A stretch of 32,000 bases of DNA from Acaryochloris marina MBIC11017 (GTDB taxonomy: Bacteria > Cyanobacteriota > Cyanobacteriia > Thermosynechococcales > Thermosynechococcaceae), in NCBI RefSeq assembly GCF_000018105.1, contig NC_009925.1, positions 5,280,001-5,312,000 of the forward strand, given 5' to 3'. The position numbers and the translations under genes are program-made. Below, piece by piece: positions 865 to 30,949 of the stretch (the first letter of the stretch is position 1; the number at the start of each line of letters is the position of its first letter). The notes under the pieces were generated by a model. That model did no database searches. It was given only the letters and a program-made list of their open reading frames with translations, and had not been told where the DNA came from.

Positions 865-1034
865 TTTCTTTCAGCCAGAATAAAATATCCTTCCGTAGAG
901 TTTCATGCCTTAAATCAATTTAAAAGGCTAAATCTTTTCGTTTTGGCCCTCAAACAATCTCTTTACATGAAGAAGTTTTCTATTCTTTTTATTGAATATA
1001 TCTTTATCAATTAAAGACCTGAACCTGACATCCG

Positions 1035-1056
1035 TATCTAAATGTTGATTTAGATA
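1035..1056. repeat. Perfect 9-bp inverted repeat (TATCTAAAT-gttg-ATTTAGATA)
   Basis: Read directly: arm 1035-1043, loop 1044-1047, arm 1048-1056. The core octamer ATCTAAAT recurs at 1247-1254 and, as its complement, at 1414-1421. Confidence 0.7.
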
Positions 1057-1564
1057 TAATCCTTGAAAATCTTTGAACTTATATTTTGTTTTAACAGGAA
1101 CCAGCCAAAAGCTTTACCAATATGGCATTGAGGCTTTTACAAATCCAGTGAATTATTTGTGGAAGAAGATTTATCTAGGAATAAGTTTTCATAAACAAAA
1201 GGCATAAAAGCAATCTTTTTCAGGTGCAAAACAGCCTGTGTCCTAGATCTAAATATAAAAACTCTCTTTCCCTTAGCCATCGAACAGATAGCTAGAAATT
1301 ATACGCAGTCTTATTGGCAGGTTAGCGACTGAGATACAGGCTTTATTTTTATGGCAACAAATTCAAATTTCTTATTTTTATTGCCAATAATTTCATGCGT
1401 CAACAAATGATCGATTTAGATAATTTTTTACCCATCCTGTTAGAGACCCTTTTATATCAGCAATAAATTTAGCTTCGCTGGCAGATTGCTATCACCCAAA
1501 CAGAAATATAAAGCATCAAGTCAGCTGCTTTTGGGTTAAAACTTTATCCTATGTCCAGAAAAAA

Positions 1565-4024
1565 ATGTTCCCTTGTTCCTCCATCCAAAAAGTATTAGCA
1601 AGCAAATCTCCATTAACAAAGAAAGGTAAGAATTTGCGACCTTGGTTAACCAGGCTCCTTGTAACTGCAGCCACCACCTCATTAGCCTTTTTCCCAACTG
1701 CAGCACAGGCCCAACGTACGTTTACGACTCGCAATGCTTTTCAGCTGAGAGGACGAACCACTATATTTGGTAATCCTGTAACTACCTGCTCTACAACAGT
1801 AGGGCCCAATTCAGGAAACTGTACTACTGCCCAACAAACCACTTCAACACCTGGGAACAACGGACTACTAACAAACAATGCCTACTGGATGGACTATGTT
1901 GATATTGATAGTGATATTGATACCTTCAACTCTTCCTCCGCTACCTATAACTTCCCAACTGGCAACCCTGGTTTTCAAATTGTTTGGGCAGGACTTTATT
2001 GGGCAGGGGATACATCTCAAGGTGGTACTTTCAATGGCAATCCAGTGGGAGTAGAAGCGCCTACACCATCGAACAGGGGGCAAATGTTGCTAAAAATACC
2101 TGGTTCTTCAATTTACCAAACCATTAACGCAACTACTCTGGATGTAATTAGCAGTACTCGCTATAGCGCTTTTGCTGATGTCACTAGTCTTGTTCAGTCA
2201 GGTGGCAGCGGAACTTATACGGGAGCGAATATCCAAACTGGAAAGGGCGAAGATCGCTATGGGGGTTGGGCCCTGATTGTCGTATATGCAGATGACACCG
2301 AGATTTTGCGCAGTATGACTATCTTCGATGGTTTTCAGGGAGTAGGAAGTAGTTCACCTTTGACAACAACTATTAGTGGTTTTCTCACCCCTAATGCTGG
2401 TCCCTTTGAATCCTCGATTGGTGCATTTATAAGCGAAGGTGATGTTGGTTTTTTTGGAGATCAGTTTCTAATTGATGGAGATGGCAATAATTCTGATGGG
2501 GATGCCACAGATCAACCATTTGTAAATGTTAGTGACTCTGAAAATCCTGCATCTAACTTCTTTAATAGTTCTAGTTCACTCTTTGAGACTCGGATTGGCA
2601 CCAGTACCAATGTAAATACTCCGGATGGCAAAATGCTGGGACCTATAGGAAGAAATCCTGCCTTTCCAAATTTATTGGCGATGGATATAGACATCGTAGA
2701 GGCCGAAGACAACTCTGGCACTGCTATTATGCAAAACAATGCCACTGAGGCAGGCTTACAGTTTACAAGTCAAGGTGATGTCTACTATCCCACGGCGTTT
2801 TTCTTCAGTGTGGAGGTCTTTCAACCCGTCTTAACCCAAAACTTTACTAAGACGGTCACGGATGTTAACGGGGGTGATCTCAACCCTGGTGACATTTTGG
2901 AATACACCATTACCTACCAGAATACGGGAAATGACAATGCCACAGATGTCGTATTAACGGATGCCATCCCCGCAAATACTACCTATGAAGCAGGGTCACT
3001 GAGAATTCTGACCGATCCTGATCCAGGCATAACTACCCCACTAACGCAAACAGACACCTTAAATGACGACCGGGCTGAATTTGATAGCACCAACAATAGA
3101 GTCGTTTTTAGGTCAGGTATTGGTGCCGATAATACCAATGGCGGAAATGTTCCCTTCGATGACCCCAATGTTGCTGGAGCTGTCGATGACACGGTTTCCG
3201 TGAGCTTCAGAGTTCGTGTTGACTCTGGTATTACAACCTTTCCCACTACTATTTCTAACCAAGCTGTCATTGACTACGTTGGCGAGTTCTCAGGTACACC
3301 TTTTACTGGTAATAGTGATGACCCAACCACACCCTCAGAACCAGATGATCCAACCGATATTGATGTAGTTGAACCTACCGATCCGAATTTGATATTGATC
3401 AAGCGGATTACCCGTATCAACGGAGTGACAACCAACGGTGCAGTTGATTTAGACGTCTATATAGATGACGTGAATAGTCCCTATGACGACAATGTCGATG
3501 AGGTTCCTCCCTTTGCGGCACAACCCGATCCAAACCAAGACGATACAACTAACTGGCCCGATGCCGATTCCCTGAATGGGCCGGACGACTATCTCAAGGG
3601 AGTTATTGATGCAGGGGAGGTCCAACCTGGAGACGAGATTGAATATACAATATATTTCCTATCAACTGGAGGGGTTCCCGCGAGAACAGTGCAATTGTGC
3701 GATCGCGTTCCCGCATTTCAAACGTTTGTGCTCGACGCTTATAACGCAGAAGCCCCAGCACCTAGTGGAGGTGTGGGAGCGAGTAGAGGCATTCTAGTCG
3801 ATTACAATAATTCCGTTTTAGCCTACACCAATGATGGAGATGGTGACACTGCGCAGTTTTACCCACCTGGTTCGACTTTACCTGCAGCTTGTAATGGTTC
3901 ACCTGCCCAATCAGAAGATAACGGAGCCATTGTGGTGGACCTAGGCGATTTACCCCAAGCGACAGGTCCTGGAAATCCTGCCACATCATATGGTGCAGTC
4001 CGTTTTCGCGCAACGGTGAAATAA
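1565..4024 (+). CDS. Large secreted cell-surface protein with DUF11/TIGR01451-type conserved repeat domains
   Basis: 819-aa ORF. The N-terminal signal-like segment is LLVTAATTSLAFFPTAAQAQ. A classic DUF11 motif NPGDILEYTITYQNTGNDNATDVVLTDAIPANTTYEAGSL lies at about 2881-3000. A second, looser copy VQPGDEIEYTIYFLSTGGVPARTVQLCDRVP lies at about 3620-3715. There are Asp-rich stretches such as IDGDGNNSDGDATD and DPNQDDTTNWPDAD. Confidence 0.8.
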   Translation: MFPCSSIQKVLASKSPLTKKGKNLRPWLTRLLVTAATTSLAFFPTAAQAQRTFTTRNAFQLRGRTTIFGNPVTTCSTTVGPNSGNCTTAQQTTSTPGNNGLLTNNAYWMDYVDIDSDIDTFNSSSATYNFPTGNPGFQIVWAGLYWAGDTSQGGTFNGNPVGVEAPTPSNRGQMLLKIPGSSIYQTINATTLDVISSTRYSAFADVTSLVQSGGSGTYTGANIQTGKGEDRYGGWALIVVYADDTEILRSMTIFDGFQGVGSSSPLTTTISGFLTPNAGPFESSIGAFISEGDVGFFGDQFLIDGDGNNSDGDATDQPFVNVSDSENPASNFFNSSSSLFETRIGTSTNVNTPDGKMLGPIGRNPAFPNLLAMDIDIVEAEDNSGTAIMQNNATEAGLQFTSQGDVYYPTAFFFSVEVFQPVLTQNFTKTVTDVNGGDLNPGDILEYTITYQNTGNDNATDVVLTDAIPANTTYEAGSLRILTDPDPGITTPLTQTDTLNDDRAEFDSTNNRVVFRSGIGADNTNGGNVPFDDPNVAGAVDDTVSVSFRVRVDSGITTFPTTISNQAVIDYVGEFSGTPFTGNSDDPTTPSEPDDPTDIDVVEPTDPNLILIKRITRINGVTTNGAVDLDVYIDDVNSPYDDNVDEVPPFAAQPDPNQDDTTNWPDADSLNGPDDYLKGVIDAGEVQPGDEIEYTIYFLSTGGVPARTVQLCDRVPAFQTFVLDAYNAEAPAPSGGVGASRGILVDYNNSVLAYTNDGDGDTAQFYPPGSTLPAACNGSPAQSEDNGAIVVDLGDLPQATGPGNPATSYGAVRFRATVK

Positions 4025-16798: not shown

Positions 16799-16810
16799 CT
16801 CCCTTCCCGC
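16799..16810. repeat. IS630 left terminal inverted repeat
   Basis: CTCCCTTCCCGC, the perfect reverse complement of 17948-17959, preceded by TA. Confidence 0.8.
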
Positions 16811-16841
16811 TGTAAAATGGGGAAAAGAGCAAATAGTCACA

Positions 16842-17375
16842 TTGAATCGAACACAAGCCTTTCTGGACAAGCCTTTTGATGCGGATGAGTGGCAGAAATT
16901 CTACTACCGCAATCAACAACACTACATTCGACAGCGCTTGACCGCGATCAAATTGCTGAATGAAGGACACAGTCGTACCCAAGTGAGCGAACAAGTGGGG
17001 TGTAGCTATGATACGTTAACGCGTTGGATGGACAAATATCTCGATGGTGGACTCCAGGGCTTGGTCCAACCCATTCGACATCAAAAACCTAGTCGGTTGA
17101 GCCCAGAGGAACAACAACAACTCAAAGAGATGGTTCTGACGCAACGTCCGACAGACTATGGTATTGACCGCAATATGTGGACAGGTGCAATTTTAGCCGT
17201 TGTGATTGAGCAGCGTTTCGAGGTGCAGCTGAAAGATTCGCGTATCTACGAATTGCTATCAGAGTTGGGGTTATCTTACCAACGCGCCCATCGTGACTAT
17301 GCGAATGCTGACCTGAACGCCCAGAAAGAGTGGGTGGCGGCTGTTAAAAAAACTGCAATCACGACAATCGGATGA
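16842..17375 (+). CDS. IS630 transposase, N-terminal HTH part (orfA)
   Basis: 177-aa ORF with HTH-like segments (HSRTQVSEQVGCSYDTLTRWMDKY; WTGAILAVVIEQRFEVQLKDSRIYELLSELGLSYQRA). It ends shortly after an A7 tract (17346-17352). Confidence 0.8.
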   Translation: MNRTQAFLDKPFDADEWQKFYYRNQQHYIRQRLTAIKLLNEGHSRTQVSEQVGCSYDTLTRWMDKYLDGGLQGLVQPIRHQKPSRLSPEEQQQLKEMVLTQRPTDYGIDRNMWTGAILAVVIEQRFEVQLKDSRIYELLSELGLSYQRAHRDYANADLNAQKEWVAAVKKTAITTIG

Positions 17376-17382
17376 GCGCATC

Positions 17383-17940
17383 TTGTTCTTTGACGAATTT
17401 GCGGTGTCTGAGCGTCCTAGGTTGTTCTATGGCTGGGCAGAACGCAACACTCGTCCACAGGTCAAGAGTAATGAGCGGGCTCGCAACAAGCTCAATGGGT
17501 TACTGTGCGTCGATGCCCACAGTGGCGAAGAGTATTTCGCTCTGAGCCCACAGGCTAAAACAGAAGATATCTCTGAGTACTTTGCAGACCTATGTCTGGA
17601 TAGCGTTGAGCTGGGCTACACTCAACTGTGCCTTATTCTCGATAACAATCCGACCCATAAGGGCAAGATGCGCTCCCAACTCGCTATCCATCTAGAGCAG
17701 ATGGGGCTCACCCAATCGATTCAAGTTGAGTTTTTATATTTGCCGTCCTACTCTCCCAAGTTGAACTTGGTTGAATATGTGATTCACTTACTACGCTTAC
17801 GATGTCTGCACCATCTCCCTCTTGGAACGACCCTGACACAGATCAAACAACAGCTCCATGAGTTCTTTGCTGCTAACCAGTTTCTATCGGCTGAACAAGT
17901 TCAAAACAGCCTGAATTTTATATTTTCACTTGTTCCATAA
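17383..17940 (+). CDS. IS630 transposase, DDE catalytic part (orfB, +1 frame relative to orfA)
   Basis: Contains ILFFDEF, LILDNNPTHK and LPSYSPKLNLVEY (DDE triad context). This frame is open from 17317, so it overlaps orfA across the A7 tract. The true product probably begins by frame change rather than at the listed TTG. Confidence 0.8.
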   Translation: MFFDEFAVSERPRLFYGWAERNTRPQVKSNERARNKLNGLLCVDAHSGEEYFALSPQAKTEDISEYFADLCLDSVELGYTQLCLILDNNPTHKGKMRSQLAIHLEQMGLTQSIQVEFLYLPSYSPKLNLVEYVIHLLRLRCLHHLPLGTTLTQIKQQLHEFFAANQFLSAEQVQNSLNFIFSLVP

Positions 17941-17947
17941 TCTTATG

Positions 17948-17959
17948 GCGGGAAGGGAG
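17948..17959. repeat. IS630 right terminal inverted repeat
   Basis: GCGGGAAGGGAG followed by TA. Confidence 0.8.
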
Positions 17960-19064: not shown

Positions 19065-20249
19065 GTGCATCAGCAAAGAATTCTGTGGGTACAAGTCTTT
19101 GCCCTAGCTCTAGTGCAAGGGGCAATTGTATTGATGTGGGTGATCTACAACCTTTATCTGGGAAAACTGCTGGGTGAGTTTGGATTTACCTCTGTATTTA
19201 TCACGGGTGTCTTACTGCTGGAAAACGGTCTGGCGATGCTGATGGAACCCCTAATGGGAAACTATTCTGACCGCGCCCAACGCTGGCTAGGCAGTCGATT
19301 TCCATTTATTGCCGCAGGGGTGATTTTGGCATCGGGATTACTGATGGCGACGGCGATGCTGGTCACCTTTGGTCAGCCAGAGGGAATCTTTCGCTGGCTT
19401 TTACCGATATTACTCGTGACCTGGGCCATTTCCATGACGGTGTTTCGCAGTCCAGCTCTGTCCTTGCTGAGCCGCTATGCCTTTGGTAGTGGTTTACCGC
19501 AAGCGGCAAGTGTATTGACCGTAATGGGGGCGATTGCTGGGGCAATGGGGCCTTTGGCCAATAAATATATTCTGGAGTTAGGGCCAGGGATTGCCTTTGG
19601 CCTAGCGTCACTCATTTTGCTAGGGGCTGCGGCCATTCTCAGGTCTGTCAATACAGAGGTGAAGATGCCCCATCAACCTTCTGGCGTTGGGGCTCGTCCA
19701 TCCATCAGAAATTTAGCCCTGGTGTTTACAGTGGGATGGGGCACCTCGTTGGGGTTTCGATTATTGATGACGACGTTTCCCAAAATCCTCAAAACCATTC
19801 CAGGCCAAAATGTAGGCCTAACAATGGGCATAATCTTTATTGCCTTGGGGATAACGGCCATTCCAGCGGGAACGGTGGCTCGTAAACTGGGGAATCGTCA
19901 AGCCATTCTCTTAGGATTACTGGGATTAGCCCTAACGTTAGTCGTGATGAATGGGGTAGGCCAGACTTGGGCAGCGGTGGGCGTAGCGATAGCCGTTGGT
20001 ACCTGTTTGAGTTTGGTGAATAATGGCACGTTGCCCTTTGCCCTATCGATGGTGCCTGCCCAGAAAGCGGGATTGGGAACCGGGATGTTTTTTAGTGGTG
20101 GAGCCTTGTCTGCCAGTTTATTCGGGGCTTTTTTCCAACAGCCAGATGCGCTGTCCCCCTTAGTGATGACGACTGTCGCGATTGTTAGTTTTGGGGTAGC
20201 GATGATTGCGATCGCATCTAGCAAGCCCCCCTCTCTACCATCGACATAA
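19065..20249 (+). CDS. MFS transporter
   Basis: 394-aa ORF with about 12 hydrophobic segments. GTG start, with the purine-rich GAGAGAGG about 11 nt upstream. Substrate unknown. Confidence 0.75.
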   Translation: MHQQRILWVQVFALALVQGAIVLMWVIYNLYLGKLLGEFGFTSVFITGVLLLENGLAMLMEPLMGNYSDRAQRWLGSRFPFIAAGVILASGLLMATAMLVTFGQPEGIFRWLLPILLVTWAISMTVFRSPALSLLSRYAFGSGLPQAASVLTVMGAIAGAMGPLANKYILELGPGIAFGLASLILLGAAAILRSVNTEVKMPHQPSGVGARPSIRNLALVFTVGWGTSLGFRLLMTTFPKILKTIPGQNVGLTMGIIFIALGITAIPAGTVARKLGNRQAILLGLLGLALTLVVMNGVGQTWAAVGVAIAVGTCLSLVNNGTLPFALSMVPAQKAGLGTGMFFSGGALSASLFGAFFQQPDALSPLVMTTVAIVSFGVAMIAIASSKPPSLPST

Positions 20250-21797
20250 ATTGGGACCCGAATTTTCCAGTTCAATCACCCGAAAATCCAGCAAATACAT
20301 CTCCCAATTGCGACGAGGCGTTTGCCATTCAGGATCCTGAACAATGTTGGGGCTGTCGTAGGTTTGCCCCTGATATTCAAACACAACAGGTACAGTCTGA
20401 CCCGCTTGGGTCCAGTCGTAAATCATTTTCTTGAACTCAACCACGGGGAGGGCACTGCCCTCTAGCTCTGCATTTTTTGGATCCATGTCTACCACTTCTG
20501 GTGGCAAGTTCAAGATCCAGACCACATCTTCTTGATAGCCCCAGCGTTTGAGGGGATTGGTGGCTAGCAGTAAATGGTTGGAGCGGGGGCCTTCGGTGCG
20601 GAGATTGCTGAACATGGAGAAGGTTCCTGCGGTGCGAAGTCCTAGATAGGGCATCAGGCCGAAGCAGCAAAGCCCAATCAAAAACACCGCCATAAATTTG
20701 GGCATGGAGGCATTGAGCACGGGGAGTCCTTGCCAAGCAGGTCTATCTTTAGGGGTAAAGACCTGGGTGAGTATCGGCCAAAGGAAAATGACTGAAGCAA
20801 GGTTAAAGATGGCCCCAGCGATAACTTTGATGTCGAAATCCAAATAGGCAAGGTAATACAGGGCAGAGAATAGACCTGCCATCACATTGAGGCCAAAATA
20901 CAGGTGTGCTCGGTGAATCTGCCGTCCCCTCAAGGAGATCTCGGATTGCTCTTGCCAAAGTTGAAGGTAGCGATCGGGAATAAAGGTAAAGAGTAGGCTT
21001 CCGGCTAGGGCACTAAAATCGACAAAGCCGATCATGGCGATAAAGGCATGCATTAGCCAGGAGAGCAGCAGAATCGGAGCCTGCAATCTGGGCACAAATA
21101 GCAAGAGACTCCCCAACAATTCCCAAGCGAGAACGAAGTAGATATTCGTATGCAAGATTAGGTCGGGTAGTAGGACGTAATCTTGATAGGCAAAGCCAAA
21201 ATAGTAAAGCAGAATGCCGCCACAGGTGAGTAAAGCGAGCAGCAGGATTTTTGGGAGTTTTGAGGATTGGAGTCTGTGGCGAATCAGTCCCTGCCAAAGT
21301 CCAAACAAGGCCAGGGCAATCACGATAGCCATAACTGGAATACCCAGGAGATTGGATTGGATCATATCCAAAATCCGATACAGCATCATGCTGGAGCAGG
21401 ACACTTGGGGATTGAGAAAGTCGGTGTTGAGTTTGTGGAATCCAGCCCAGAAGTAAACGCCAAGCAAGGAGGCTCTAAGGAGGGGACGCATCATGGCGTA
21501 GTAGCTTTCTGCGCTGGCCTGTTTGAACCAGGCGTAGACCATGCCTGCCATCAAAGCGAGGTTGAGGTAAATCAGGAAGTTGACGTGGTTGGCGACGTCA
21601 GGGAAGCGAAAAATTAGGAAATAGGCAGTAGAGAGGACCAGGAAGGCAAAAAACTTGATCCGGGTTATGCGGGTGAAGACGAAGACGGTGAGTAATGCCA
21701 AAAAAGCGAGGGCAAAGCCGGGAGCTTTCCACTTTTCCTGCATTTCTAGCAGGAAAGCGGTCATGTAGAGGAGGGTGAAGATGGAGAACGAACTCAT
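20235..21797 (-). CDS. Polytopic membrane protein of unknown function with soluble C-terminal domain (possibly HTTM/VKGC-like)
   Basis: 520-aa ORF with many TM segments. The stretch GLRTAGTFSMFSNLRTEGPRSNHLL loosely recalls HTTM-domain proteins. The family call is tentative. Confidence 0.65.
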   Translation of the reverse strand: MSSFSIFTLLYMTAFLLEMQEKWKAPGFALAFLALLTVFVFTRITRIKFFAFLVLSTAYFLIFRFPDVANHVNFLIYLNLALMAGMVYAWFKQASAESYYAMMRPLLRASLLGVYFWAGFHKLNTDFLNPQVSCSSMMLYRILDMIQSNLLGIPVMAIVIALALFGLWQGLIRHRLQSSKLPKILLLALLTCGGILLYYFGFAYQDYVLLPDLILHTNIYFVLAWELLGSLLLFVPRLQAPILLLSWLMHAFIAMIGFVDFSALAGSLLFTFIPDRYLQLWQEQSEISLRGRQIHRAHLYFGLNVMAGLFSALYYLAYLDFDIKVIAGAIFNLASVIFLWPILTQVFTPKDRPAWQGLPVLNASMPKFMAVFLIGLCCFGLMPYLGLRTAGTFSMFSNLRTEGPRSNHLLLATNPLKRWGYQEDVVWILNLPPEVVDMDPKNAELEGSALPVVEFKKMIYDWTQAGQTVPVVFEYQGQTYDSPNIVQDPEWQTPRRNWEMYLLDFRVIELENSGPNLCRW

Positions 21798-21910
21798 CGG
21801 TTGGCTTGTTGATTACTGTGTTCCCCCGTGGTGATGTTGTCAGCTATCGCGGCTGAGCATTCGCTATCTTTCCAAAATAAACTTGATTGTCGAAAGAGCA
21901 GTTTTTATGC

Positions 21911-21921
21911 CTTAGTATATT
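21911..21921. repeat. Left copy of 11-bp direct repeat CTTAGTATATT bracketing the AIPR gene
   Basis: Identical 11-mer at 21911-21921 and 23973-23983, both inside the AT-rich flanks. Confidence 0.35.
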
Positions 21922-22092
21922 GGCTGAGGAGCATCCTAAGCATGGCAAAGCAATTGATAGCTACTTTGACACAAGTACTGAATAACAAGCTATTTAAGAA
22001 AACTGAACTGTAGGTGTTCAACCTGTTAATCCAGCCTCAGGAAATATTAGATTATTGAGAATCTCATAAAGAGGCTCAATGTAGCCAATAAA

Positions 22093-22116
22093 AGCTAAGT
22101 CCTTAGCTAAGTCCTT
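22093..22116. repeat. Tandem duplication of a 12-mer (AGCTAAGTCCTT x2) just 3' of the AIPR stop; may double as a weak terminator
   Basis: Read directly. On the minus-strand RNA it gives GCUAAGGACUUAGC followed by UUUUAUU. Confidence 0.5.
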
Positions 22117-22123
22117 ATGGCTC

Positions 22124-23854
22124 CTAATTTTTCTTCAATCTTTTTATCATTAAAGCCTTCAACTCATTAGTATGCAGAGTTCTTTTTAATCTATCTTTTG
22201 TGGCCCATCCACCTTCTTCAATAACGCTTTTACATATTTCATAGTATTCAAGATGCTCATCACGTGGCTTATTTAAAGCTTCAATTATTTTGGTGAAATA
22301 TTTATTAATTCGCCTGGAATTTACTTCAGGCACTTTCTGATTGCCATTAATAGCATATTTTAACAACATAAGTGTATGCCATCTATATTTTCCATAGTTT
22401 CCTGGGAGCTTCTTGCTATTAAAAAGTCTAACAAATTTATATAAAGCTAATGTTGAACAGTAGTATGTTATTTCATTTTGATTATCTTCAAAAAGCCTAT
22501 CCCCCGACTGTTCAAATATCTGTGTTGGGTAGCTAGATGCAGTATGTGGAATTTCTAAGAACATTGAAGCAAATGCACGCGCAACTGTTCTTATGTCAAA
22601 TATCTTTGTGTCATTAATAGTTTTCCCTGCATATTGATTTTCTCTTCTCTCAAAATATATAACTGAATCAGACTCGCTTTCATCATTCCAACTATTAAAA
22701 TAGCTTTCGACTGATTTTGATTTTGCCTTTAAAGATAGAAATTTTTCATTAGAGACATAACTCTGATTATTTGTCGCTTCAACAATTTTATTAACTATTT
22801 CTGGGTTATCTACTTCGATTACTTTTGCTGTAATCATTGTATTTTCACCTAAGTAGTTTTTGTTCCTATATAAAACATGGCTACTTTGACACCCATTAAC
22901 AATTTGATAGTTTGATAAACTAATTGAATCACTTTGTACTCTCACATCAGGTGATACTATAGTTATTCCATTATTTAATAGTGCAAAATATTCTTTGAAT
23001 TTTTCATTTGATAAAGTTTCTTTTATCTTCATATTTACATCATTACATTCCCCAAGATATGCTCGAACATTTTCATCAAATATTCCGCTTCGCATTTTCC
23101 CGTCTTCTCCTTCAAGTAAAGACTCCACATAATTCTTGGCTGGGATAATAGCGATATAGGATTCTTCTACTTCTTTCATTTCATTATATGAGACATATCC
23201 TTTAACTTTTACTATTGCTTCAACAGGCTGATGAATTGAAATCCATATTTTAATTAATTCATCACGATCTACTTTGCTACAAACTACTTGCTCAAAAACT
23301 CCAATGCCTCTAATTTTTCTGCGAGAAGTTTTGAGAGATGCTTCCAGCTCTGTCTCATTATTCCAAACACCTGTAGTCACATAATATGTGTATGCATTTG
23401 GCTTGCCATTTTTTACTTTATCAACATTTTCAATTATAGATGCAAAAATCTTTGTAGCCTCAGCCAGAATTTCATCTTGGGGGAACTCTGGTTCTTCAGA
23501 TGAGAAATCAAAGACTCCTTCACTAAAACTAATGATATCTCTTTTTTCAAATGAATCAGAGGTTTTAGACTGAATAAAAACAATATCAATTTCGATGCTC
23601 TTTTTATGAGTTTGAAATAGAGACTCAATTTCTTCAGTAGTAGTTATCAACTCTCCGTCGGCAATAATCGCAATACCATCAATCCCAGCATCTTCCTCGG
23701 TAGTAGTTACATCAGAAACATCAAACTTCCCTGAGAAAAATCGACTTACAATACAATAATTAACGAACATTTCAAATTGTTTTGAAATATCTGGCTCTTC
23801 AATCCCTTTTGTCTCTAAGAACTTCTTTAAATGTGTTTTGATAATTCGATGCAT
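22124..23854 (-). CDS. AIPR-family (abortive infection phage resistance-like) protein
   Basis: I prefer ATG 23854 (MHRIIKTHLKKF...), which has GGAGG 6 nt upstream. The track starts at a TTG inside that SD. Motifs I associate with Pfam AIPR: FEMFVNYCIV...EEDAGIDGIAIIADGELI near the N-terminus, and NVRAYLG...FALLNNGITIVS...YQIVNGCQSSHVLY centrally. About 30% G+C. Confidence 0.8.
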   Translation of the reverse strand: MHRIIKTHLKKFLETKGIEEPDISKQFEMFVNYCIVSRFFSGKFDVSDVTTTEEDAGIDGIAIIADGELITTTEEIESLFQTHKKSIEIDIVFIQSKTSDSFEKRDIISFSEGVFDFSSEEPEFPQDEILAEATKIFASIIENVDKVKNGKPNAYTYYVTTGVWNNETELEASLKTSRRKIRGIGVFEQVVCSKVDRDELIKIWISIHQPVEAIVKVKGYVSYNEMKEVEESYIAIIPAKNYVESLLEGEDGKMRSGIFDENVRAYLGECNDVNMKIKETLSNEKFKEYFALLNNGITIVSPDVRVQSDSISLSNYQIVNGCQSSHVLYRNKNYLGENTMITAKVIEVDNPEIVNKIVEATNNQSYVSNEKFLSLKAKSKSVESYFNSWNDESESDSVIYFERRENQYAGKTINDTKIFDIRTVARAFASMFLEIPHTASSYPTQIFEQSGDRLFEDNQNEITYYCSTLALYKFVRLFNSKKLPGNYGKYRWHTLMLLKYAINGNQKVPEVNSRRINKYFTKIIEALNKPRDEHLEYYEICKSVIEEGGWATKDRLKRTLHTNELKALMIKRLKKN

Positions 23855-23972
23855 TTCCCCCTCCAATTTATATGCAATTGTTTTTTGATAGCTAGAATTT
23901 AGATTTTAATATTTTTGTATTTACTGAGCTGTACTCACAAGATGTTTATTGTATGCCAAACACATTTGCAAG

Positions 23973-23983
23973 CTTAGTATATT
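23973..23983. repeat. Right copy of 11-bp direct repeat CTTAGTATATT
   Basis: See the left copy. Confidence 0.35.
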
Positions 23984-24193
23984 ACCACTTATTTTGATTT
24001 TATTTTAAAAATAGCAAGCGAAATATAATTCTAATTTACCTATAGCCTGAAATAAAATCACTCTTTTTTAGCTCCATGTCAATACTAAACATAATGAATA
24101 CCAAGGTAATATATCTAGCTATGTATTGAAGAACAAAGAAAAAACAATTCATGTCAGATTATATAACTCTGCATATAGAATGCATATTTTGAG

Positions 24194-25087
24194 ATGCTTT
24201 CCTCATTTGCTTGCAGACCGCTAGGTTTATTTATTGGCTTATCCACGCTGGATATAATTTATCTCGCCTCTGGTCCTCCCCAAGCCAACCAAAAACTAGT
24301 TGCCCTAGATAGCCTAATTTCAGCAGGCGGTCCTGCCACTAACGCCGCTGCCACCTTCGCCCATCTCGGCAATTCCGCCCATCTCCTCTCTGCCATGGGC
24401 CAACATCCCATTACCCAACTGATGCGATCTGACCTCGCCAGCGTCAGCCCATCCATCCTCCATACCGACCTCACCCCCACACAAACTCAATCCCCTCCCG
24501 TCTCCTCCATCGTGGTCACCCAAACCACCGGAGAACGCGCCGTCATCTCCCTCAATGCCCAACGCCAAATCGCCCAGCCTGACCAAATTCCCCAGGATCT
24601 ACGGAAAAAGCTCACCACCACCGATATTATTCTGATGGACGGTCATCAAATCCCCGTCAGCCTCGCCATTGCTCAACAAGCCACCAATATTCCCACCGTC
24701 CTAGATGGGGGCAGTTGGAAACCTAGCCTAGAAAACCTGCTGCCCTATATCAATTACGCCATTTGCTCCACTGACTTCCATCCCCCCGGCTGTGAGGACA
24801 CCCAAGCCACAGTGGAGTACTTAAAACAGACCTTACCAGACCCCGCTCATATTGCTATTACCCAGGGCGATCAGCCCATTCTCTACTGGGATGATACCGA
24901 AGGAGGGTCCGTACCCCTCCCGCAAATTACCCCCGTTGATACCTTAGGGGCAGGCGATATCTTTCACGGTGCTTTTTGCCACTTTATCTTGGGCAGCGAT
25001 TTCCCCCAGGCTTTAGCCCAGGCTGCTCATGTCGCATCAACCGCTTGTCAGTTCTTTGGCACTCGGGCTTGGATGCAATCCTATTAA
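24194..25087 (+). CDS. PfkB-family carbohydrate kinase (ribokinase-like)
   Basis: 297-aa ORF with N-terminal GLSTLDIIY and the C-terminal PfkB signature VDTLGAGDIFHGAF. Confidence 0.85.
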   Translation: MLSSFACRPLGLFIGLSTLDIIYLASGPPQANQKLVALDSLISAGGPATNAAATFAHLGNSAHLLSAMGQHPITQLMRSDLASVSPSILHTDLTPTQTQSPPVSSIVVTQTTGERAVISLNAQRQIAQPDQIPQDLRKKLTTTDIILMDGHQIPVSLAIAQQATNIPTVLDGGSWKPSLENLLPYINYAICSTDFHPPGCEDTQATVEYLKQTLPDPAHIAITQGDQPILYWDDTEGGSVPLPQITPVDTLGAGDIFHGAFCHFILGSDFPQALAQAAHVASTACQFFGTRAWMQSY

Positions 25088-26761: not shown

Positions 26762-27217
26762 GTGTCCCCTGTCTCCATTCAACAAAGCGATCCAACCCAT
26801 CCATCAGCCCTTCGCCTGATTTAGCAACTGGACGCTTACTTGAACCGGATCTATCCACCGGAAAGTAATTACCTCATGTCTGCAGAAGCCCTCAGGCAGC
26901 CCCATATCCAGTTTCTCACCGTGCAGAAAGGCGAAACGGTGGTTGGTTGTGGAGCCTTGGTGAATCATGGCGATTATGGAGAAATCAAACGCTTCTTTAT
27001 CCAACCTGAATTTCGAGGAATGCAGCTCGGCGTTCAACTGCTTCATGCTCTGGAAACACGAGCTACTGCGCTGCACTTACCCTGCCTCCGCTTAGAAAGC
27101 GGAATATTTCAGCCTGAGGCGCTGGGGCTATTTACCAAATTGGGCTATCACCAACGAGAACCTTTCGGCCAGTATCAGGCAAATCCCTACAGTGTGTTTA
27201 TGGAGAAGTCTTTGTAG
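26762..27217 (+). pseudogene. GNAT acetyltransferase interrupted by an in-frame TAG at 26822-26824
   Basis: Hand translation from GTG 26762 gives VSPVSIQQSDPTHPSALRLI*QLDAYLNRIYPPESNYLMSAEAL...VGCGALV...RGMQLGVQLLHALE. The 20 codons before the stop are in frame and look like the normal N-terminus of this small GNAT family. The track ORF (26840..27217) starts at an internal TTG. Confidence 0.6.
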
Positions 27218-27897
27218 CGGTTCCATCTCCCTTCATGATCCCAAAGATTTTCTATCGAAAACCCCAGTAAGGTCCATTTTGGTTGTTTTTGTATCAAACG
27301 CTACAGTGGTTAACACCTTTTAACGTAAATACTGTATTACTCGTGACAGTGGACCTAATCTATTAACTTATTGAGAGTTATAGGTGATGGGGCTAGATCG
27401 AAACCAATTGATATAATGCCGACCCGCTATCAGCACTAAGGGCATAGAAGGCTATCATTACAGCTCATATTTCTAGATGAGTCGTGGTTTCTGCGCGGGT
27501 TAAACACTTATTACGGAGAGGGGGAAGACGAATTTTTTACTTTAAAAAGTTCCTGGCTACTCACTCCCACCGATCCTTTTAGATGAGTGAAGCCTTAATC
27601 TTTATTAAATTCTGAACTTGTTCCTTATTTAATAATGAATTGAAATTACAGATTGTCGCGAATTACACATTGAGGAATAAAAAAGTTTAGTGTACGGAAT
27701 TCATGACAAACTCGATCGTTATAATTAGTCAAAGTGACTGATATAAAGTAATAATCAAAAAGCAGCCTTTGTTAGAATCTACTTTCCTTACTCTAAAGCG
27801 AAATAGTTATTTCTTACTACTGATTGAGCATTAAAACAAGGATTAAGTTCAAGGCTCATCATCCTACTAAACAACACTATGAGGGGGAACAAGTCAT

Positions 27898-28632
27898 ATG
27901 GATCATCAACCGAGCGAAAGTTCCGCCTCAAGCGAGCTCTTGATGTCACCCCAACAGTCTTTTCTAGAATTTTCTCCGTCTAAACAAATGCAAGAAATCC
28001 TTCAGCAATATGAACGGATGCTGGAGCAACAACAAAGCCAAATCGAATATTTGAATTTTGAATTGCAATTATTGCAATCTGAAAGACCTTTGCCTTTTAA
28101 AGGCAATCAGATTTGGTTGAAATTCAAGAAATTCATATCAAGTATCCACGGTAGTTCAAAGGTTCAACCACGTTTTTCTCTAAGCCAAATTCTGTTTACG
28201 TATATCGGGAGTTTCTTGGGAATTGCAGCGTTGGCCTATCTAAGTACGGTATCCGACTACCCTCTGATTGCGGCTCCCTTTGGTGCCGCTGCAGTGCTCG
28301 TATTTGCGGTGCCGAATAGCCCCCTAGCTCAACCCCGAAATTTAATTTTTGGCAATTTATTAGGGGCAATTGTCAGTGTGGTGATGGTTTATCTGTTTGG
28401 TTCTGAACCCTGGGTAATGGCGTTATCCGTTGCGACAGCCATTAAAGTGATGCAGCTAACCAAAACCCTCCACCCTCCTGGAGGCGCTGTGGCTCTAGTG
28501 GGGGTCATGAGTCAAGCAACCTGGAATTTTGTACTCACACCTGTTGTCGCCGGATCAATTGTTTTACTCTTCTGCACGTTTGCGTTTAATAATCTAATGC
28601 CAGAACGGTCTTATCCTCGTCACTGGTTATAA
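27898..28632 (+). CDS. HPP-family membrane protein with ~95-aa hydrophilic coiled-coil-like N-terminal extension
   Basis: The motif LHPPGGAVALVG plus four hydrophobic segments are characteristic of the HPP family. The SD GAGGGGGA precedes the ATG. The N-terminus QEILQQYERMLEQQQSQIEYLNFELQLLQSE is not membrane-embedded. Confidence 0.75.
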   Translation: MDHQPSESSASSELLMSPQQSFLEFSPSKQMQEILQQYERMLEQQQSQIEYLNFELQLLQSERPLPFKGNQIWLKFKKFISSIHGSSKVQPRFSLSQILFTYIGSFLGIAALAYLSTVSDYPLIAAPFGAAAVLVFAVPNSPLAQPRNLIFGNLLGAIVSVVMVYLFGSEPWVMALSVATAIKVMQLTKTLHPPGGAVALVGVMSQATWNFVLTPVVAGSIVLLFCTFAFNNLMPERSYPRHWL

Positions 28633-28676
28633 AGCCTTTAGTGTTGAACATTATTTAGATCTCGGATAGGTATCGA

Positions 28677-29096
28677 TTGGCACATCAATTAAGAAGAATA
28701 AGAAAAAGGGTTCGTGTTGATATTTTAGGGGTAGTGGTTACCAACGCTATTATTATGGCAACCCCTTCCTCCAATATAGAATTTGTTAAAAATATTACTC
28801 TGACCTTTGCGAATATCGTCATGTTTATCCTGATTTGGGATGCTTATTTTGACGATAAATTATCGAGAAAAAGCCCCTGGGGAATTATCAAAGATCTATT
28901 GACCGTCACAGCAGTCAGCACTATCACTACTTTTATTACCTATCAAATTCTGATCAAAAAGATCACTCCCTTAATTATTACCTGGGGGGATCTAGGATGG
29001 ATCGTAGGAGGAGGGGTTTCTGGTATTGCCACAACCATTTTGGGAGTAATATGGGCATTATACTGTGACGATCTTTATCGCAATTCTACTGCTTGA
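28677..29096 (+). CDS. Hypothetical small membrane protein
   Basis: 139-aa ORF with a TTG start and basic N-terminus (RRIRKRVR), then about 3 hydrophobic segments. A sampled line (28741-28800) has 20/60 G+C. I recognise no family. Confidence 0.4.
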   Translation: MAHQLRRIRKRVRVDILGVVVTNAIIMATPSSNIEFVKNITLTFANIVMFILIWDAYFDDKLSRKSPWGIIKDLLTVTAVSTITTFITYQILIKKITPLIITWGDLGWIVGGGVSGIATTILGVIWALYCDDLYRNSTA

Positions 29097-29413
29097 AGAG
29101 ATAAAAAATCTCTAATAAATATATAGAAGAAACAGCCATCTTGCTGATTATTTCCTTTAACCTTGATTGGTTCACAAACAGACTGAATTCAGATTAAACC
29201 TCTAGATATTGGGTTCCCCAATGGAGATCAGCATAGTCAAAAGATGAGGATAGGCAGTGCTGAACCTCATCTACTTGCGGTCTCTTCACGCCCAGCATGG
29301 CATGAATTCTCTATACTTCTATAATGCAACCCCACATAATTGCCATCCAAACAAGGTGATCTTTTCATCTTGTCCGGCCCTGGGGAAAACCATTATCCTG
29401 ATTCTCGTCCTGC

Positions 29414-30358: not shown

Positions 30359-30595
30359 CTAGCTTGAGATCAGCTGTGATGATTGTCTTTGTTCTAGCCC
30401 TTGCTGCTGTCTTCTTTTCTCAAAATAGATGTTGACTGGATTCTGTTTATTCTCAGTTTCCAATTGGGCACTCAATTGATCTAGGACAGCAATTTGCTCA
30501 TCAAATTGAGCACAAACCTCACGCATTCTGGCAACTGAACGCGCTCTCCTTTCAGGATCAGGAATTCTGGGTTGGTTGTTCATCATAGATTCCAA
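30359..30595 (-). CDS. Hypothetical small protein (helical, charged)
   Basis: 78-aa ORF with no motif I recognise. It lies 18 nt downstream of the preceding small ORF on the same strand. Confidence 0.35.
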   Translation of the reverse strand: MESMMNNQPRIPDPERRARSVARMREVCAQFDEQIAVLDQLSAQLETENKQNPVNIYFEKRRQQQGLEQRQSSQLISS

Positions 30596-30613
30596 TTTCT
30601 CTTGATTTCCTGA

Positions 30614-30949
30614 TTACTGGCCTCTCCTGCATCTGTAATAGCCTGAGCTTGAGATATTGATCGGAGAAGTAAATCTAGAAGTAGCTGCTGGTTGAGATTC
30701 AGCAATCTGAAGCGAGAGCCGATAAAGCTTAATGTAATAAGAAGTTGCCCGTTCTCTCACATTTTGAAGTTCATCTAGCTCTGGTATGGTCGCTTCTGTC
30801 TCTCCAAATTGGGTAAAGATTACAAATGAAAATTTTGTCGCCTCATTAATAATTTTTAGTAATCGCTGCTGCAAGTTGAAGATGATATTTAGTGTTTCTG
30901 CTGATAAATCGGCCATTGGTTCTATTAGGTGAGTTGAAGCCTCAGTCAA
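30614..30949 (-). CDS. Hypothetical small protein
   Basis: 111-aa ORF from a TTG. An alternative ATG at 30915 gives MADLSAETLNII.... No motif recognised. Confidence 0.35.
   Translation of the reverse strand: MTEASTHLIEPMADLSAETLNIIFNLQQRLLKIINEATKFSFVIFTQFGETEATIPELDELQNVRERATSYYIKLYRLSLQIAESQPAATSRFTSPINISSSGYYRCRRGQ

What the first reader, a model, noticed from the sequence alone, without database searches (positions are those of the whole stretch)
21870..24193. Solo AIPR-family abortive-infection-like gene on a ~2.3-kb low-GC islet between core genes
Composition shifts sharply here. I counted 17/60 G+C in 22381-22440 and 19/60 in 22801-22860, against 30/60 in the flanking line 21301-21360. 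The block holds one long ORF (22124-23854, minus) with a strong SD (GGAGG 6 nt before the ATG). That ORF carries the motifs I associate with Pfam AIPR: EEDAGIDGIAIIADGELI near the N-terminus and NVRAYLG...LLNNGITIVS...IVNGCQSS centrally. There is no integrase, no methylase or restriction partner, and no second ORF over 60 aa. None of the 13 HIP1 octamers I found falls inside the block. As far as I know, AIPR is named only by homology to Abi proteins and its mechanism is essentially undescribed. A single-gene copy dropped into a cyanobacterial chromosome is therefore the best candidate in this window for an uncharacterised anti-phage module.
Basis: partly seen in the sequence, partly recalled or inferred. 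Interest (0 to 1): 0.7.

Follow-up and report, generated by a model that had tools for sequence, protein, structure and literature searches.

The report
Acquired AbiU phage-defence gene islet
A 2.3-kb AT-rich insert in the Acaryochloris marina chromosome carries one intact gene of the known AbiU (AIPR) anti-phage family; it sits in a slot that is empty or holds other defence-like genes in related strains, so it is a genuine but ordinary example of a swapped-in defence gene whose biochemical mechanism is still unknown.

Summary
Window 21892-24222 is the lowest-GC stretch of the window (31.9% against 48.4%; GC3 of the gene 23% against 48-60%). It carries one real gene, 22124-23854 (-), 576 aa.

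The gene matches Pfam AIPR (E=3e-40). It also matches the PADLOC AbiU model over its full length (E=1e-110). This is therefore the known single-gene AbiU system, founded by Lactococcus AbiU1, not an unnamed module.

The islet is acquired:
- An Acaryochloris-like relative has the membrane gene and PfkB directly adjacent, with a 220-bp spacer.
- A. marina AP026075.1 (about 94% nt identity in the flanks) has a caspase-GUN4 pair between exactly the same breakpoints.
- NIES-2412 has that pair plus a transposase and a toxin-antitoxin pair.

The closest homologues (75-83% aa) are in low-GC metagenome contigs and marine gammaproteobacteria, where the gene is likewise a low-GC solo gene.

The protein has an N-terminal E28/D59/Q95-x-K97 motif, a restriction-endonuclease-like signature shared with a lactococcal plasmid protein that appears to be AbiU1. 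Its C-terminal AIPR domain resembles ParB, DUF262 and DndB folds. The likely mechanism, an inference, is a self-contained sensor-nuclease.

Verdict: a new member of a known kind, of modest interest.

The parts
21892..24222 (.). Acquired low-GC islet. It is the variable cargo of the slot between the 520-aa membrane gene and PfkB.
   Evidence: blastn homology with three relatives stops at 21890/21891 and resumes at 24223-24228. GC is 0.319 against 0.484. It shares no sequence with the cargo of L027 or L028, or with the spacer of L024.
22124..23854 (-). abiU gene (AIPR family), 576 aa; the stop codon is 22124-22126.
   Evidence: ORF. Pfam AIPR E=3e-40. PADLOC AbiU E=1.1e-110. 100% identical to 'AIPR family protein [Acaryochloris marina]' P0001. 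omega about 0.05 against the closest homologues.
23860..23864 (-). Shine-Dalgarno-like GGAGG, with a 5-nt spacer before the ATG.
   Evidence: Read from the sequence. Homologues also start MHRII, which supports the ATG at 23854 over the TTG at 23866.
23480..23854 (-). N-terminal domain, residues 1-125: predicted PD-(D/E)xK (Mrr-type D...QxK) nuclease core with E28, D59, Q95 and K97.
   Evidence: These four residues are invariant in 71 homologues and in the lactococcal AbiU1-like protein. In the AF2 model they lie on helix 23-37, strand 60-65 and strand 89-97. There are weak Mrr_cat and DUF4365 hits in 3 of 71 members each. The literature assigns AbiU-1 to the PD-(D/E)XK superfamily and reports a FokI-like fold.
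23105..23479 (-). Middle alpha/beta region, residues 126-250, of unknown role.
   Evidence: AF2 model with pLDDT of about 80-96 in this region. No Pfam match.
22277..23080 (-). AIPR domain (Pfam match, residues 259-526). Invariant residues are N262, R264, G268, N294-G296, T298, Q317, N320-Q323, T361, N362, Q364, R403 and R404.
   Evidence: ParB/DUF262/DndB-like fold hits in BFVD with probability 0.90-0.99. Weak PDB hits to Spo0J 1vz0 and BrxU 7p9m.
23855..24193 (.). AT-rich (GC about 0.27) region between the divergent abiU and PfkB start codons. It presumably holds both promoters.
   Evidence: Promoter-like matches are no more frequent than in shuffles. No Rfam family. Only chance-like ORFs of 38 aa or less. 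Not conserved in homologous loci.
24194..24222 (+). First ~10 codons of PfkB, supplied by the islet.
   Evidence: The window protein starts MLSSFACRPLGLFIGLSTLD, whereas relatives start MTNAGLFIGLSTLD. Nucleotide homology begins at about 24223.
21892..22123 (.). Non-coding tail 3' of abiU, including the 12-bp tandem duplication AGCTAAGTCCTT x2 at 22093-22116.
   Evidence: The hairpin is not significant (z = -1.45). No terminator-like match in this tail: the region's only one is at 22312-22331, inside the abiU CDS on the + strand.
20235..21797 (-). Left flank: core 520-aa membrane protein, with no Pfam match.
   Evidence: Orthologues at 87-89% in Acaryochloris MAGs and about 42% in other cyanobacteria.
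24194..25087 (+). Right flank: core PfkB-family sugar kinase.

Best explanation
The block is a horizontally acquired, single-gene AbiU (AbiU1/AIPR-family) anti-phage defence locus in Acaryochloris marina. It sits in a strain-variable slot between two core genes.

How it arrived. The slot exchanges cargo without any integrase, probably by homologous recombination in the conserved flanks. This is inferred.

How it works. The 576-aa protein most likely acts alone as a combined sensor and effector.
- The N-terminal restriction-endonuclease-fold domain (E28, D59, Q95-x-K97, the Mrr/MspJI-type D...QxK variant) would be the effector. It would cut nucleic acid, most likely DNA, during infection. That would fit the delayed phage transcription reported for lactococcal AbiU.
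- The C-terminal AIPR domain is a divergent ParB/DUF262/DndB-like fold followed by a helical bundle. It would be the regulatory or recognition module that keeps the nuclease silent until a phage cue appears, either a nucleotide or a feature of phage DNA.

Shown here: family identity, acquisition, intactness, purifying selection, motif conservation and fold resemblance.
Taken from the literature: the phage-resistance phenotype of the family founder.
Inferred: nuclease activity, the trigger, and whether the outcome is abortive infection or direct restriction.
For: Identity.
- Pfam AIPR 139 bits.
- PADLOC AbiU 369 bits over the full length.
- A Lactococcus cremoris plasmid protein of 589 aa scores 590 bits on the same model. 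It is followed by a 341-aa gene, as I recall the published AbiU1/AbiU2 pair to be (my recollection; I could not read Dai et al. 2001). It aligns with the window protein at 27% identity over the AIPR domain and shares E28, D59, Q95 and K97.

Acquisition.
- GC 0.319 against 0.484, and GC3 0.23.
- Empty site in L024-L026. Different cargo at identical breakpoints in L027 (flanks 93.6-93.9% nt identity) and L028.
- Nearest homologues are outside the genus: 82% in 33%-GC contigs, and 75-78% in Shewanella, Saliniradius and Halomonas.
- In Shewanella algae the gene is also a low-GC solo islet, 0.34 against 0.54.

Functionality.
- Full length, with all invariant residues of 71 homologues retained.
- omega about 0.05.
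- Confident AF2 model: pLDDT 84.7, pTM 0.78.

Domains.
- The E/D/QxK motif lies on the alpha-beta-beta-beta elements expected of a PD-(D/E)xK core.
- BFVD Foldseek after a phage AIPR protein (E=1e-13): DndB-like, GmrSD-N/DUF262 and ParB/Srx proteins at probability 0.90-0.99.

Phenotype of the founder: EOP reduced by 10^-1 to 10^-2 and phage transcription delayed (Dai 2001).
Against: - No experiment exists on this protein or on any cyanobacterial AbiU.
- Identity to the lactococcal protein is only 27%, and BLASTP detects it only in the AIPR domain.
- Foldseek against the PDB gives no significant match for the full model or for the C-terminal model (best E 0.07 and 0.3). A profile search of PDB sequences finds nothing. 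The fold assignments therefore rest on weak or predicted-structure matches and on published statements.
- The ParB-type DGx(H/Q)R arginine is not conserved; the motif reads NGCQ[S/T].
- Mrr_cat is hit by only 3 of 71 members, at E>=0.02.
- The reported protection by lactococcal AbiU is modest.
- No promoter or terminator signal stands out above chance.
Confidence: 0.75

Rival explanations
1. The protein is a defence gene, but it works as a direct restriction enzyme rather than by abortive infection. It would be Type IV-like, dependent on DNA modification or on NTP. The ParB/DUF262-like AIPR domain would bind or hydrolyse NTP and scan DNA, as in GmrSD/BrxU. The Mrr/MspJI-type D...QxK nuclease would then cut modified phage DNA, and the cell would survive.
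For: - The D59...Q95-x-K97 variant is invariant. By my own knowledge, not tested here, it is the motif of the modification-dependent enzymes Mrr and MspJI.
- GmrSD N-terminal (DUF262) proteins are the most frequent named class among the BFVD fold hits (ranks 11, 13, 14, 16 and 47, plus a DUF262 protein at rank 22; rank 48 is a GmrSD C-terminal protein). BrxU 7p9m appears among the weak PDB hits.
- Makarova et al. link AbiU1/AIPR to RM systems.
- The review notes that many 'Abi' labels are historical.
Against: - No Pfam DUF262, DUF1524 or Mrr_cat match reaches threshold.
- The DGQQR arginine is absent.
- The only phenotype data describe delayed phage transcription and weak, broad protection, not classical restriction.
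- All fold matches are weak.
Confidence: 0.3
2. The gene is a passenger with no current function in this host. It would be either a recently arrived, poorly expressed foreign gene that is silenced or on its way to decay, or a selfish, addiction-like gene kept for its own sake.
For: - Its composition has not shifted towards the host: GC3 is 0.23 in a host with GC3 of about 0.55. This codon usage is a poor match for the host.
- No recognisable promoter or terminator stands out above chance.
- The gene is absent from close relatives with no evident cost to them.
Against: - The ORF is intact and full length, and keeps every family-invariant residue.
- omega is about 0.05 across the clade.
- A strong SD lies in front of the ATG.
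- The identical protein is recovered from five independent sequencing runs.
- The islet also supplies the start codon and upstream region of the core PfkB gene, so the region must be transcriptionally active on at least one strand.
Confidence: 0.12
3. The protein is not a defence gene. It would be a ParB/DndB-like DNA-binding regulator or partition-type protein, for example a regulator of a DNA-modification system encoded elsewhere.
For: DndB-like and ParB-like proteins are among the fold hits. Makarova et al. relate the DndB N-terminus to AbiU1/AIPR.
Against: - There are no dnd, ssp or partition genes in the 32-kb window.
- The full-length match is to the AbiU defence model, not to DndB.
- The conserved nuclease-type motif is hard to explain for a pure regulator.
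- The gene is patchy, mobile and low-GC in unrelated hosts. In one homologue context it lies next to a TIR gene, and the same slot in relatives holds defence-like or toxin-antitoxin cargo. This is typical of defence genes.
Confidence: 0.05

Closest known systems
AbiU (AbiU1/AbiUi) of Lactococcus lactis plasmid pND001; DefenseFinder/PADLOC system 'AbiU'
   Same: - A single protein of about 580 aa.
- Full-length match to the PADLOC AbiU model.
- The same two-part layout: an N-terminal E...D...QxK motif and a C-terminal AIPR domain, with the N-terminal motif residues (E28, D59, Q95, K97) invariant across both.
- A low-GC mobile gene.
   Different: - Only 27% identity, detectable by BLASTP only over residues 230-465.
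- It is chromosomal, in a cyanobacterium, rather than on a lactococcal plasmid.
- No AbiU2 (HEPN) gene lies downstream. That partner is not required for resistance according to the review.
- The phenotype here is untested.
MzaE of the MZA system (an AIPR-family component of a five-gene system)
   Same: It shares the AIPR domain: NCBIfam MzaE local hit at E=8e-8 over residues 253-346.
   Different: - The score is 31 bits against a cut-off of 1050.
- No MzaA-D-like neighbours are present.
- The N-terminal half is different.
GmrSD/BrxU Type IV restriction enzymes (DUF262 ParB-like NTPase plus DUF1524 HNH nuclease)
   Same: The logic is the same: a ParB-superfamily domain is fused to a nuclease in one polypeptide. 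There are weak fold resemblances.
   Different: - The domain order is reversed.
- The nuclease is of the PD-(D/E)xK type, not His-Me.
- No Pfam DUF262 or DUF1524 hit was found.
- The DGQQR motif is replaced by NGCQ[S/T].
Integrase-less chromosomal defence hotspots between core genes (as described for Pseudomonas, Acinetobacter and E. coli; e.g. PMC11723918, listed)
   Same: A fixed pair of core genes flanks alternative cargo that is mostly defence-like. Four states were seen at identical breakpoints: AbiU; caspase-GUN4 (PADLOC hits to PD-T4-6 and caspase); that pair plus a toxin-antitoxin pair and a transposase; and empty.
   Different: - Only four haplotypes were sampled here.
- The slot holds one or two genes rather than a multi-system island.
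- Whether the alternative cargo really acts in defence is unknown.

Membership tests
Pfam AIPR (PF10592) | HMM match above the curated gathering score | tested here: met
   139.2 bits against a cut-off of 25, E=3e-40, residues 259-526 on profile positions 1-282 of 308. All 71 aligned homologues also match.
AbiU (PADLOC PDLC02357 / DefenseFinder AbiU) | Full-length match to the AbiU protein model | tested here: met
   E=1.1e-110, 369 bits, residues 2-562 on profile positions 3-527 of 537. A lactococcal AbiU1-like protein scores 590 bits on the same model.
AbiU (PADLOC PDLC02357 / DefenseFinder AbiU) | Same architecture and conserved residues as the lactococcal founder | tested here: met
   F27, E28, F30, D55, D59, Q95, K97 and F102 are invariant in an alignment with the L. 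cremoris pC42 589-aa protein. The AIPR domain aligns at 27% identity, E=1e-20. Caveat: I could not retrieve the original pND001 sequence and used a plasmid homologue of the same length.
AbiU (PADLOC PDLC02357 / DefenseFinder AbiU) | Confers phage resistance (reduced EOP, delayed phage transcription) | not testable with these tools
   Known only for Lactococcus (Dai 2001, via PMC13064643).
AbiU (PADLOC PDLC02357 / DefenseFinder AbiU) | Single-gene system with no obligatory partner | tested here: met
   No conserved neighbour across the window, L029, L030/L031, L033 and L034. No supported second ORF in the islet.
PD-(D/E)xK nuclease superfamily (Mrr-type D...QxK) | Catalytic motif on the alpha-beta-beta-beta core | tested here: met
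   E28 lies on helix 23-37, D59 at the start of strand 60-65, and Q95 and K97 at the end of strand 89-97. All four are invariant in 71 sequences.
PD-(D/E)xK nuclease superfamily (Mrr-type D...QxK) | Significant profile or structure match to a known member | tested here: inconclusive
PD-(D/E)xK nuclease superfamily (Mrr-type D...QxK) | Metal-dependent nuclease activity | not testable with these tools
   -
ParB/Srx superfamily (DUF262 / DndB-DGQHR-like) | Fold similarity of the AIPR domain to ParB-superfamily proteins | tested here: inconclusive
   BFVD: DndB-like E=5e-3 at probability 0.99; GmrSD-N at E=1e-2 and probability 0.90-0.98; several ParB/Srx and DUF262 proteins. PDB: Spo0J 1vz0 at E=0.65-2.4 and BrxU at E=1.8, none significant. 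The assignment is asserted in PMC3632139.
ParB/Srx superfamily (DUF262 / DndB-DGQHR-like) | Conserved DGx(H/Q)R or GxxR arginine motif | tested here: not met
   The equivalent strand-to-helix motif reads I-V-N320-G-C-Q323-[S/T], with no arginine. The invariant arginines lie elsewhere: R264, R403 and R404. The positional equivalence is my inference.
MZA system (MzaE) | NCBIfam equivalog score and MzaA-D neighbours | tested here: not met
   31 bits against a cut-off of 1050. The neighbours are housekeeping genes.
Integrative genomic island (integrase/att-bounded) | Integrase or recombinase gene, flanking direct repeats, tRNA target | tested here: not met
   No such gene lies in or next to the block. 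No flanking repeats beyond chance. No tRNA in the window. The nearest transposase, an IS630-like element, is 4 kb away and is a separate insertion.

The most novel reading that the evidence does not exclude
Two linked readings are not excluded by the evidence.

(a) AbiU proteins may be NTP- or DNA-modification-gated nucleases. A degenerate ParB-like switch (the AIPR domain, lacking the canonical arginine) would control an Mrr-type D...QxK nuclease. This would be a mirror-image analogue of GmrSD. It would reclassify a widespread 'Abi' system, abundant in marine archaea and bacteria, as a new type of Type IV-like restriction.

(b) The junction between the membrane gene and PfkB may be a dedicated, integrase-free defence-exchange hotspot of the Acaryochloris pangenome. 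Its incoming cargo also rewires the promoter and start codon of a core sugar-kinase gene.
Probability: 0.25. Interest if true: 0.6.

Novelty: new member of a known kind. Interest (0 to 1): 0.3.

Why it matters
AbiU is one of the more frequent defence genes called in genomes. It is reported in about 4% of RefSeq bacterial genomes and in 21% of dark-ocean single-cell genomes. Even so, its mechanism is unknown, and Foldseek and sequence searches of the PDB returned no structure with significant similarity.

This copy is a clean natural example for three reasons:
- It is a single gene.
- Its insertion boundaries are sharply defined.
- Natural empty-site and alternative-cargo alleles exist in close relatives.

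It would therefore be convenient for testing AbiU function in a cyanobacterium and against cyanophages. It also documents a small defence-exchange slot in Acaryochloris. It does not reveal a new kind of system.

Tried and rejected
- Empty-site search through the membrane gene in species-representative genomes. The three Acaryochloris MAGs found have different genes upstream of the membrane gene and no PfkB within 10 kb. They could not serve as an empty-site control. Orthologues of PfkB gave the answer instead.
- Solved-structure relatives. A profile search of PDB sequences found nothing. Foldseek against the PDB, with both the full-length model and a separately predicted C-terminal model, gave no hit at E<0.001. 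Only the viral predicted-structure library gave interpretable fold matches.
- Hidden partner or regulatory RNA in the islet. No Rfam family. Promoter-like and terminator-like matches are at chance level. The 3' hairpin is not significant. The small ORFs look like chance products of AT-rich DNA. The flanks of the gene are not conserved in homologous loci.
- Remnants of the alternative cargo (caspase-GUN4, Y1 transposase, TA pair) in the window. None were found.
- Target-site duplications or inverted repeats at the islet ends. None were convincing.
- HIP1 depletion as evidence of foreignness. Rejected as underpowered, since only 1.0 site is expected.
- MzaE/MZA membership. Rejected.
- Literature on Acaryochloris and abortive infection. 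Nothing relevant was found. Dai et al. 2001 itself is not in the held library.
Full report
**1. The observation**

Its three hand counts of G+C (17/60, 19/60 and 30/60) are exact. The block is the lowest-GC 2.3-kb stretch in the window:
- GC is 0.319 for 21892-24222, against 0.484 for the rest.
- The next-lowest non-overlapping stretch is 0.396.
- Background stretches of this size have mean 0.484 and sd 0.034.
- Third-codon-position GC of the ORF is 0.23, against 0.48-0.60 in six neighbouring genes.

The block holds one long ORF, 22124-23854 on the minus strand, 576 aa. GGAGG lies at 23864-23860, which leaves a 5-nt spacer before the ATG. Homologues begin with the same MHRII, so the ATG is the start, not the TTG four codons upstream.

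All 13 HIP1 octamers are confirmed, against 0.3 expected by chance, and none lies in the block. Only about one would be expected there, so P of zero is 0.36. The HIP1 argument therefore adds nothing.

Two small corrections apply:
- Four mechanical ORFs of 61-71 aa overlap the block. Three are embedded in the abiU coding sequence and one straddles the left edge. None has support.
- Comparison with relatives places the true boundaries at 21891/21892 and about 24222/24223. The right boundary is about ten codons inside PfkB.

**2. What the gene is**

The protein matches Pfam AIPR (PF10592) at 139 bits against a cut-off of 25, E=3e-40, residues 259-526. It also matches the PADLOC AbiU model almost end to end, E=1.1e-110, profile positions 3-527 of 537. 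NCBIfam gives only a local, far sub-threshold hit to MzaE, 31 bits against 1050.

An identical protein is on record as 'AIPR family protein [Acaryochloris marina]' on a 6.50-Mb replicon. The window therefore comes from an A. marina chromosome.

I compared it with a Lactococcus cremoris plasmid protein of 589 aa. That protein is followed by a 341-aa gene, which is how I recall the published AbiU1/AbiU2 pair (I could not read Dai et al. 2001 to confirm the lengths), and it scores 590 bits on the same PADLOC model. BLASTP aligns it with the window protein only over the AIPR domain, at 27% identity and E=1e-20. A multiple alignment nevertheless shows that the N-terminal residues F27, E28, F30, D55, D59, Q95, K97 and F102 are invariant between the two.

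The gene is thus a divergent but architecturally complete member of the AbiU family.

**3. It was acquired, into a variable slot**

Orthologues of the flanking PfkB kinase were traced to their contigs. Four states exist at the same junction:
- **Window type.** AbiU is present. Five independent sequencing runs carry the identical protein; the four contigs that extend far enough show the same neighbours.
- **Empty.** Contigs L024-L026 (PfkB 90% identical) have the membrane gene and PfkB next to each other, separated by a 220-bp spacer.
- **Caspase-GUN4.** A. marina AP026075.1 (L027) has a 133-aa gene and a 563-aa Peptidase_C14-GUN4 gene.
- **Caspase-GUN4 plus more.** A. marina NIES-2412 (L028) has that pair plus a Y1 transposase and a Gp49/HTH toxin-antitoxin pair.

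The flanks of L027 are 93.6-93.9% identical to the window at the nucleotide level. The homology breaks at exactly 21890 and 24223. The other relatives break at the same bases. The alternative cargos share no sequence with the window's islet, and no remnants of them are present in the window.

The caspase-GUN4 protein matches the PADLOC models PD-T4-6 (3e-36) and caspase (6e-13). The slot therefore tends to hold defence-like genes.

There is no integrase, no tRNA and no flanking repeat. Exchange by homologous recombination in the conserved flanks is the simplest explanation, but it is an inference.

More distant Acaryochloris MAGs have a different gene order upstream of the membrane gene.

**4. 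Where it came from**

The nearest homologues are not from Acaryochloris:
- 82% identity in metagenome or run-assembly contigs that are themselves 33% GC and lack HIP1. One lies next to a TIR/ThsB-like gene and one next to a ParA-like gene.
- 83% to a partial Phormidesmis MAG protein.
- 75-78% in Shewanella algae, Saliniradius and Halomonas.
- Only 59% in Scytonema and Microcoleus.

In S. algae the gene is again a low-GC solo islet, 0.34 against 0.54, among core genes. In another lineage it sits beside a Y1 transposase-like gene.

Only the coding sequence is conserved between loci, at 73% nt identity. The flanks are not conserved.

Against the closest homologues, synonymous sites are near saturation (dS about 2.1), whereas omega is about 0.05. 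The gene has been under strong purifying selection, and none of the sampled homologues is the immediate donor.

No neighbour is conserved across the five contexts examined. The 'solo' description therefore holds.

**5. The protein and its likely mechanism**

*Conserved residues.* An alignment of 71 homologues at 37-83% identity shows two clusters of invariant residues:
- F27, E28, D59, Q95 and K97 in the N-terminal part.
- N262, R264, L267, G268, N274, F290, N294-G296, T298, Q317, N320-Q323, T361, N362, Q364, F386, R403, R404, P436 and E461 in the AIPR part.

*Model.* The AlphaFold2 model is confident, with pLDDT 84.7 and pTM 0.78.

*N-terminal domain.* The model places E28 on a helix, D59 at the start of a strand, and Q95-x-K97 at the end of the third strand. 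This is the canonical layout of a PD-(D/E)xK nuclease core. By my own knowledge, the D...QxK variant is the one found in Mrr and MspJI. Further points:
- Direct database support is weak. Mrr_cat and DUF4365 are each hit by only 3 of 71 members, at E>=0.02. Foldseek against the PDB gives nothing significant.
- Three publications independently assign AbiU-1 to the PD-(D/E)XK or FokI-like nucleases.

*AIPR domain.* Makarova et al. state that AbiU1/AIPR/COG1479 contains a ParB-superfamily nuclease domain. My tests are consistent with this but not decisive:
- Against predicted viral structures, the model hits a phage AIPR protein at E=1e-13. It then hits a run of DndB-like, GmrSD-N/DUF262 and ParB/sulfiredoxin proteins at probability 0.90-0.99 and E of 5e-3 to 1e-1.
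- Against the PDB, a separately predicted C-terminal model (pLDDT 86.5) gives only weak hits. These are several chains of Spo0J 1vz0 and BrxU 7p9m, at E of 0.65 or more.
- The signature arginine of the ParB/DUF262 DGx(H/Q)R motif is absent; the sequence reads NGCQ[S/T].
- A profile search of PDB sequences finds no relative with a solved structure.

*Best-supported reading.* The protein is a self-contained sensor-effector. An N-terminal restriction-type nuclease would be held in check by a ParB-like AIPR module plus a helical C-terminal bundle, and released by a phage cue. This fits the delayed phage transcription and the 10- to 100-fold drop in EOP reported for lactococcal AbiU (Dai 2001, as summarised). 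Nuclease activity, the trigger, and the choice between abortive infection and direct (Type IV-like) restriction are all inferred.

**6. Local consequences**

The insert splits what is, in the empty allele, a 331-bp divergent promoter region. Two things follow:
- Only 94 bp of ancestral sequence remain upstream of the membrane gene.
- PfkB has lost its ancestral upstream region and its first codons. The window protein starts MLSSFACRPLGLF..., against MTNAGLF... in relatives.

PfkB must now be expressed from the AT-rich 339-bp region it shares with abiU. That region has no Rfam match, no excess of promoter-like sites, and only chance-like small ORFs.

**7. Comparison with what is known, and verdict**

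The gene is a member of the AbiU/AIPR family on every feature I could test. These are the HMM matches, the architecture, the conserved motif and the single-gene organisation. Only the phenotype cannot be tested here.

It is not an MzaE, because the score and the neighbours both fail. It is not a GmrSD enzyme, because the domains and motif are lacking. It is not an integrase-bounded island.

It undersold what is known in two respects. The family founder was characterised experimentally. AbiU is also a standard entry in defence-system catalogues and is common in marine prokaryotes.

What remains open is the mechanism of the whole family, not the identity of this locus. This is a new member of a known kind. 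Interest is modest at 0.3. It is raised slightly by the cleanly defined hotspot with natural empty and alternative alleles, and by the absence of any solved AIPR structure.

Noticed in passing
window 16799-17959: An IS630-like element forms a 1161-bp insertion. It has an HTH ORF at 16842-17375 and a DDE_3 ORF at 17383-17940, which look like one transposase split in two. A. marina AP026075.1 is contiguous across this point (L027 1593/1594). It is a separate event from the abiU islet, 4 kb away.
   Followed up: partly
L027 5522-8017; L028 4119-8011: The same slot between the membrane gene and PfkB holds different cargo in other A. marina strains. There it carries a 133-135-aa gene plus a 544-563-aa Peptidase_C14 (caspase)-GUN4 protein. 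That protein hits the PADLOC models PD-T4-6 (3e-36, C-terminal part) and caspase (6e-13). NIES-2412 also has a Y1 transposase and a Gp49/HTH_3 toxin-antitoxin pair. This may be an uncharacterised caspase-type defence pair.
   Followed up: partly
window 24194-24222: The first ~10 codons of the core PfkB kinase lie inside the foreign islet. The window protein starts MLSSFACRPL-GLFIGLSTLD, whereas relatives start MTNA-GLFIGLSTLD. The insertion therefore replaced the gene's start codon and its whole upstream region.
   Followed up: partly
window 22093-22116: A perfect 12-bp tandem duplication, AGCTAAGTCCTT x2, lies immediately 3' of the abiU stop codon. The local hairpin followed by UUUUAUU is not significantly stable (z = -1.45).
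   Followed up: yes
window 24036-24152 (-): A 38-aa hydrophobic ORF (MNCFFFVLQYIARYITLVFIMFSIDMELKKSDFISGYR) lies upstream of abiU on the same strand. It is probably a chance ORF in AT-rich DNA, because the region is not conserved upstream of homologous abiU genes.
   Followed up: partly
window 20235-21797 (-): The 520-aa multi-pass membrane protein flanking the islet has no Pfam family. It is nevertheless conserved at 41-44% identity in Pleurocapsa-like and other marine cyanobacterial MAGs. It is a conserved cyanobacterial membrane protein of unknown function.
   Followed up: no
L033 103-870; L030 4973-5521: The closest abiU homologues have different neighbours in different hosts. One sits next to a TIR/ThsB-like gene in a 33%-GC contig, and another sits next to a Y1_Tnp (REP-associated transposase-like) gene. 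This fits a gene that travels alone between defence islands.
   Followed up: partly
window 501-1800, 27217-27898, 28501-29300, 30401-30900: These are further stretches with GC below 0.40, none as low as the islet. The stretch 27217-27898 is a long intergenic region between the GNAT and HPP genes, and a gap of the same length is present in A. marina AP026075.1, so it is not an insertion. The others were not examined.
   Followed up: no
window 1565-4024 (+): An 819-aa ORF begins in a low-GC stretch. It has only short DUF11, DUF7619 and DUF7927 repeat matches and is probably a surface or cell-wall repeat protein.
   Followed up: no
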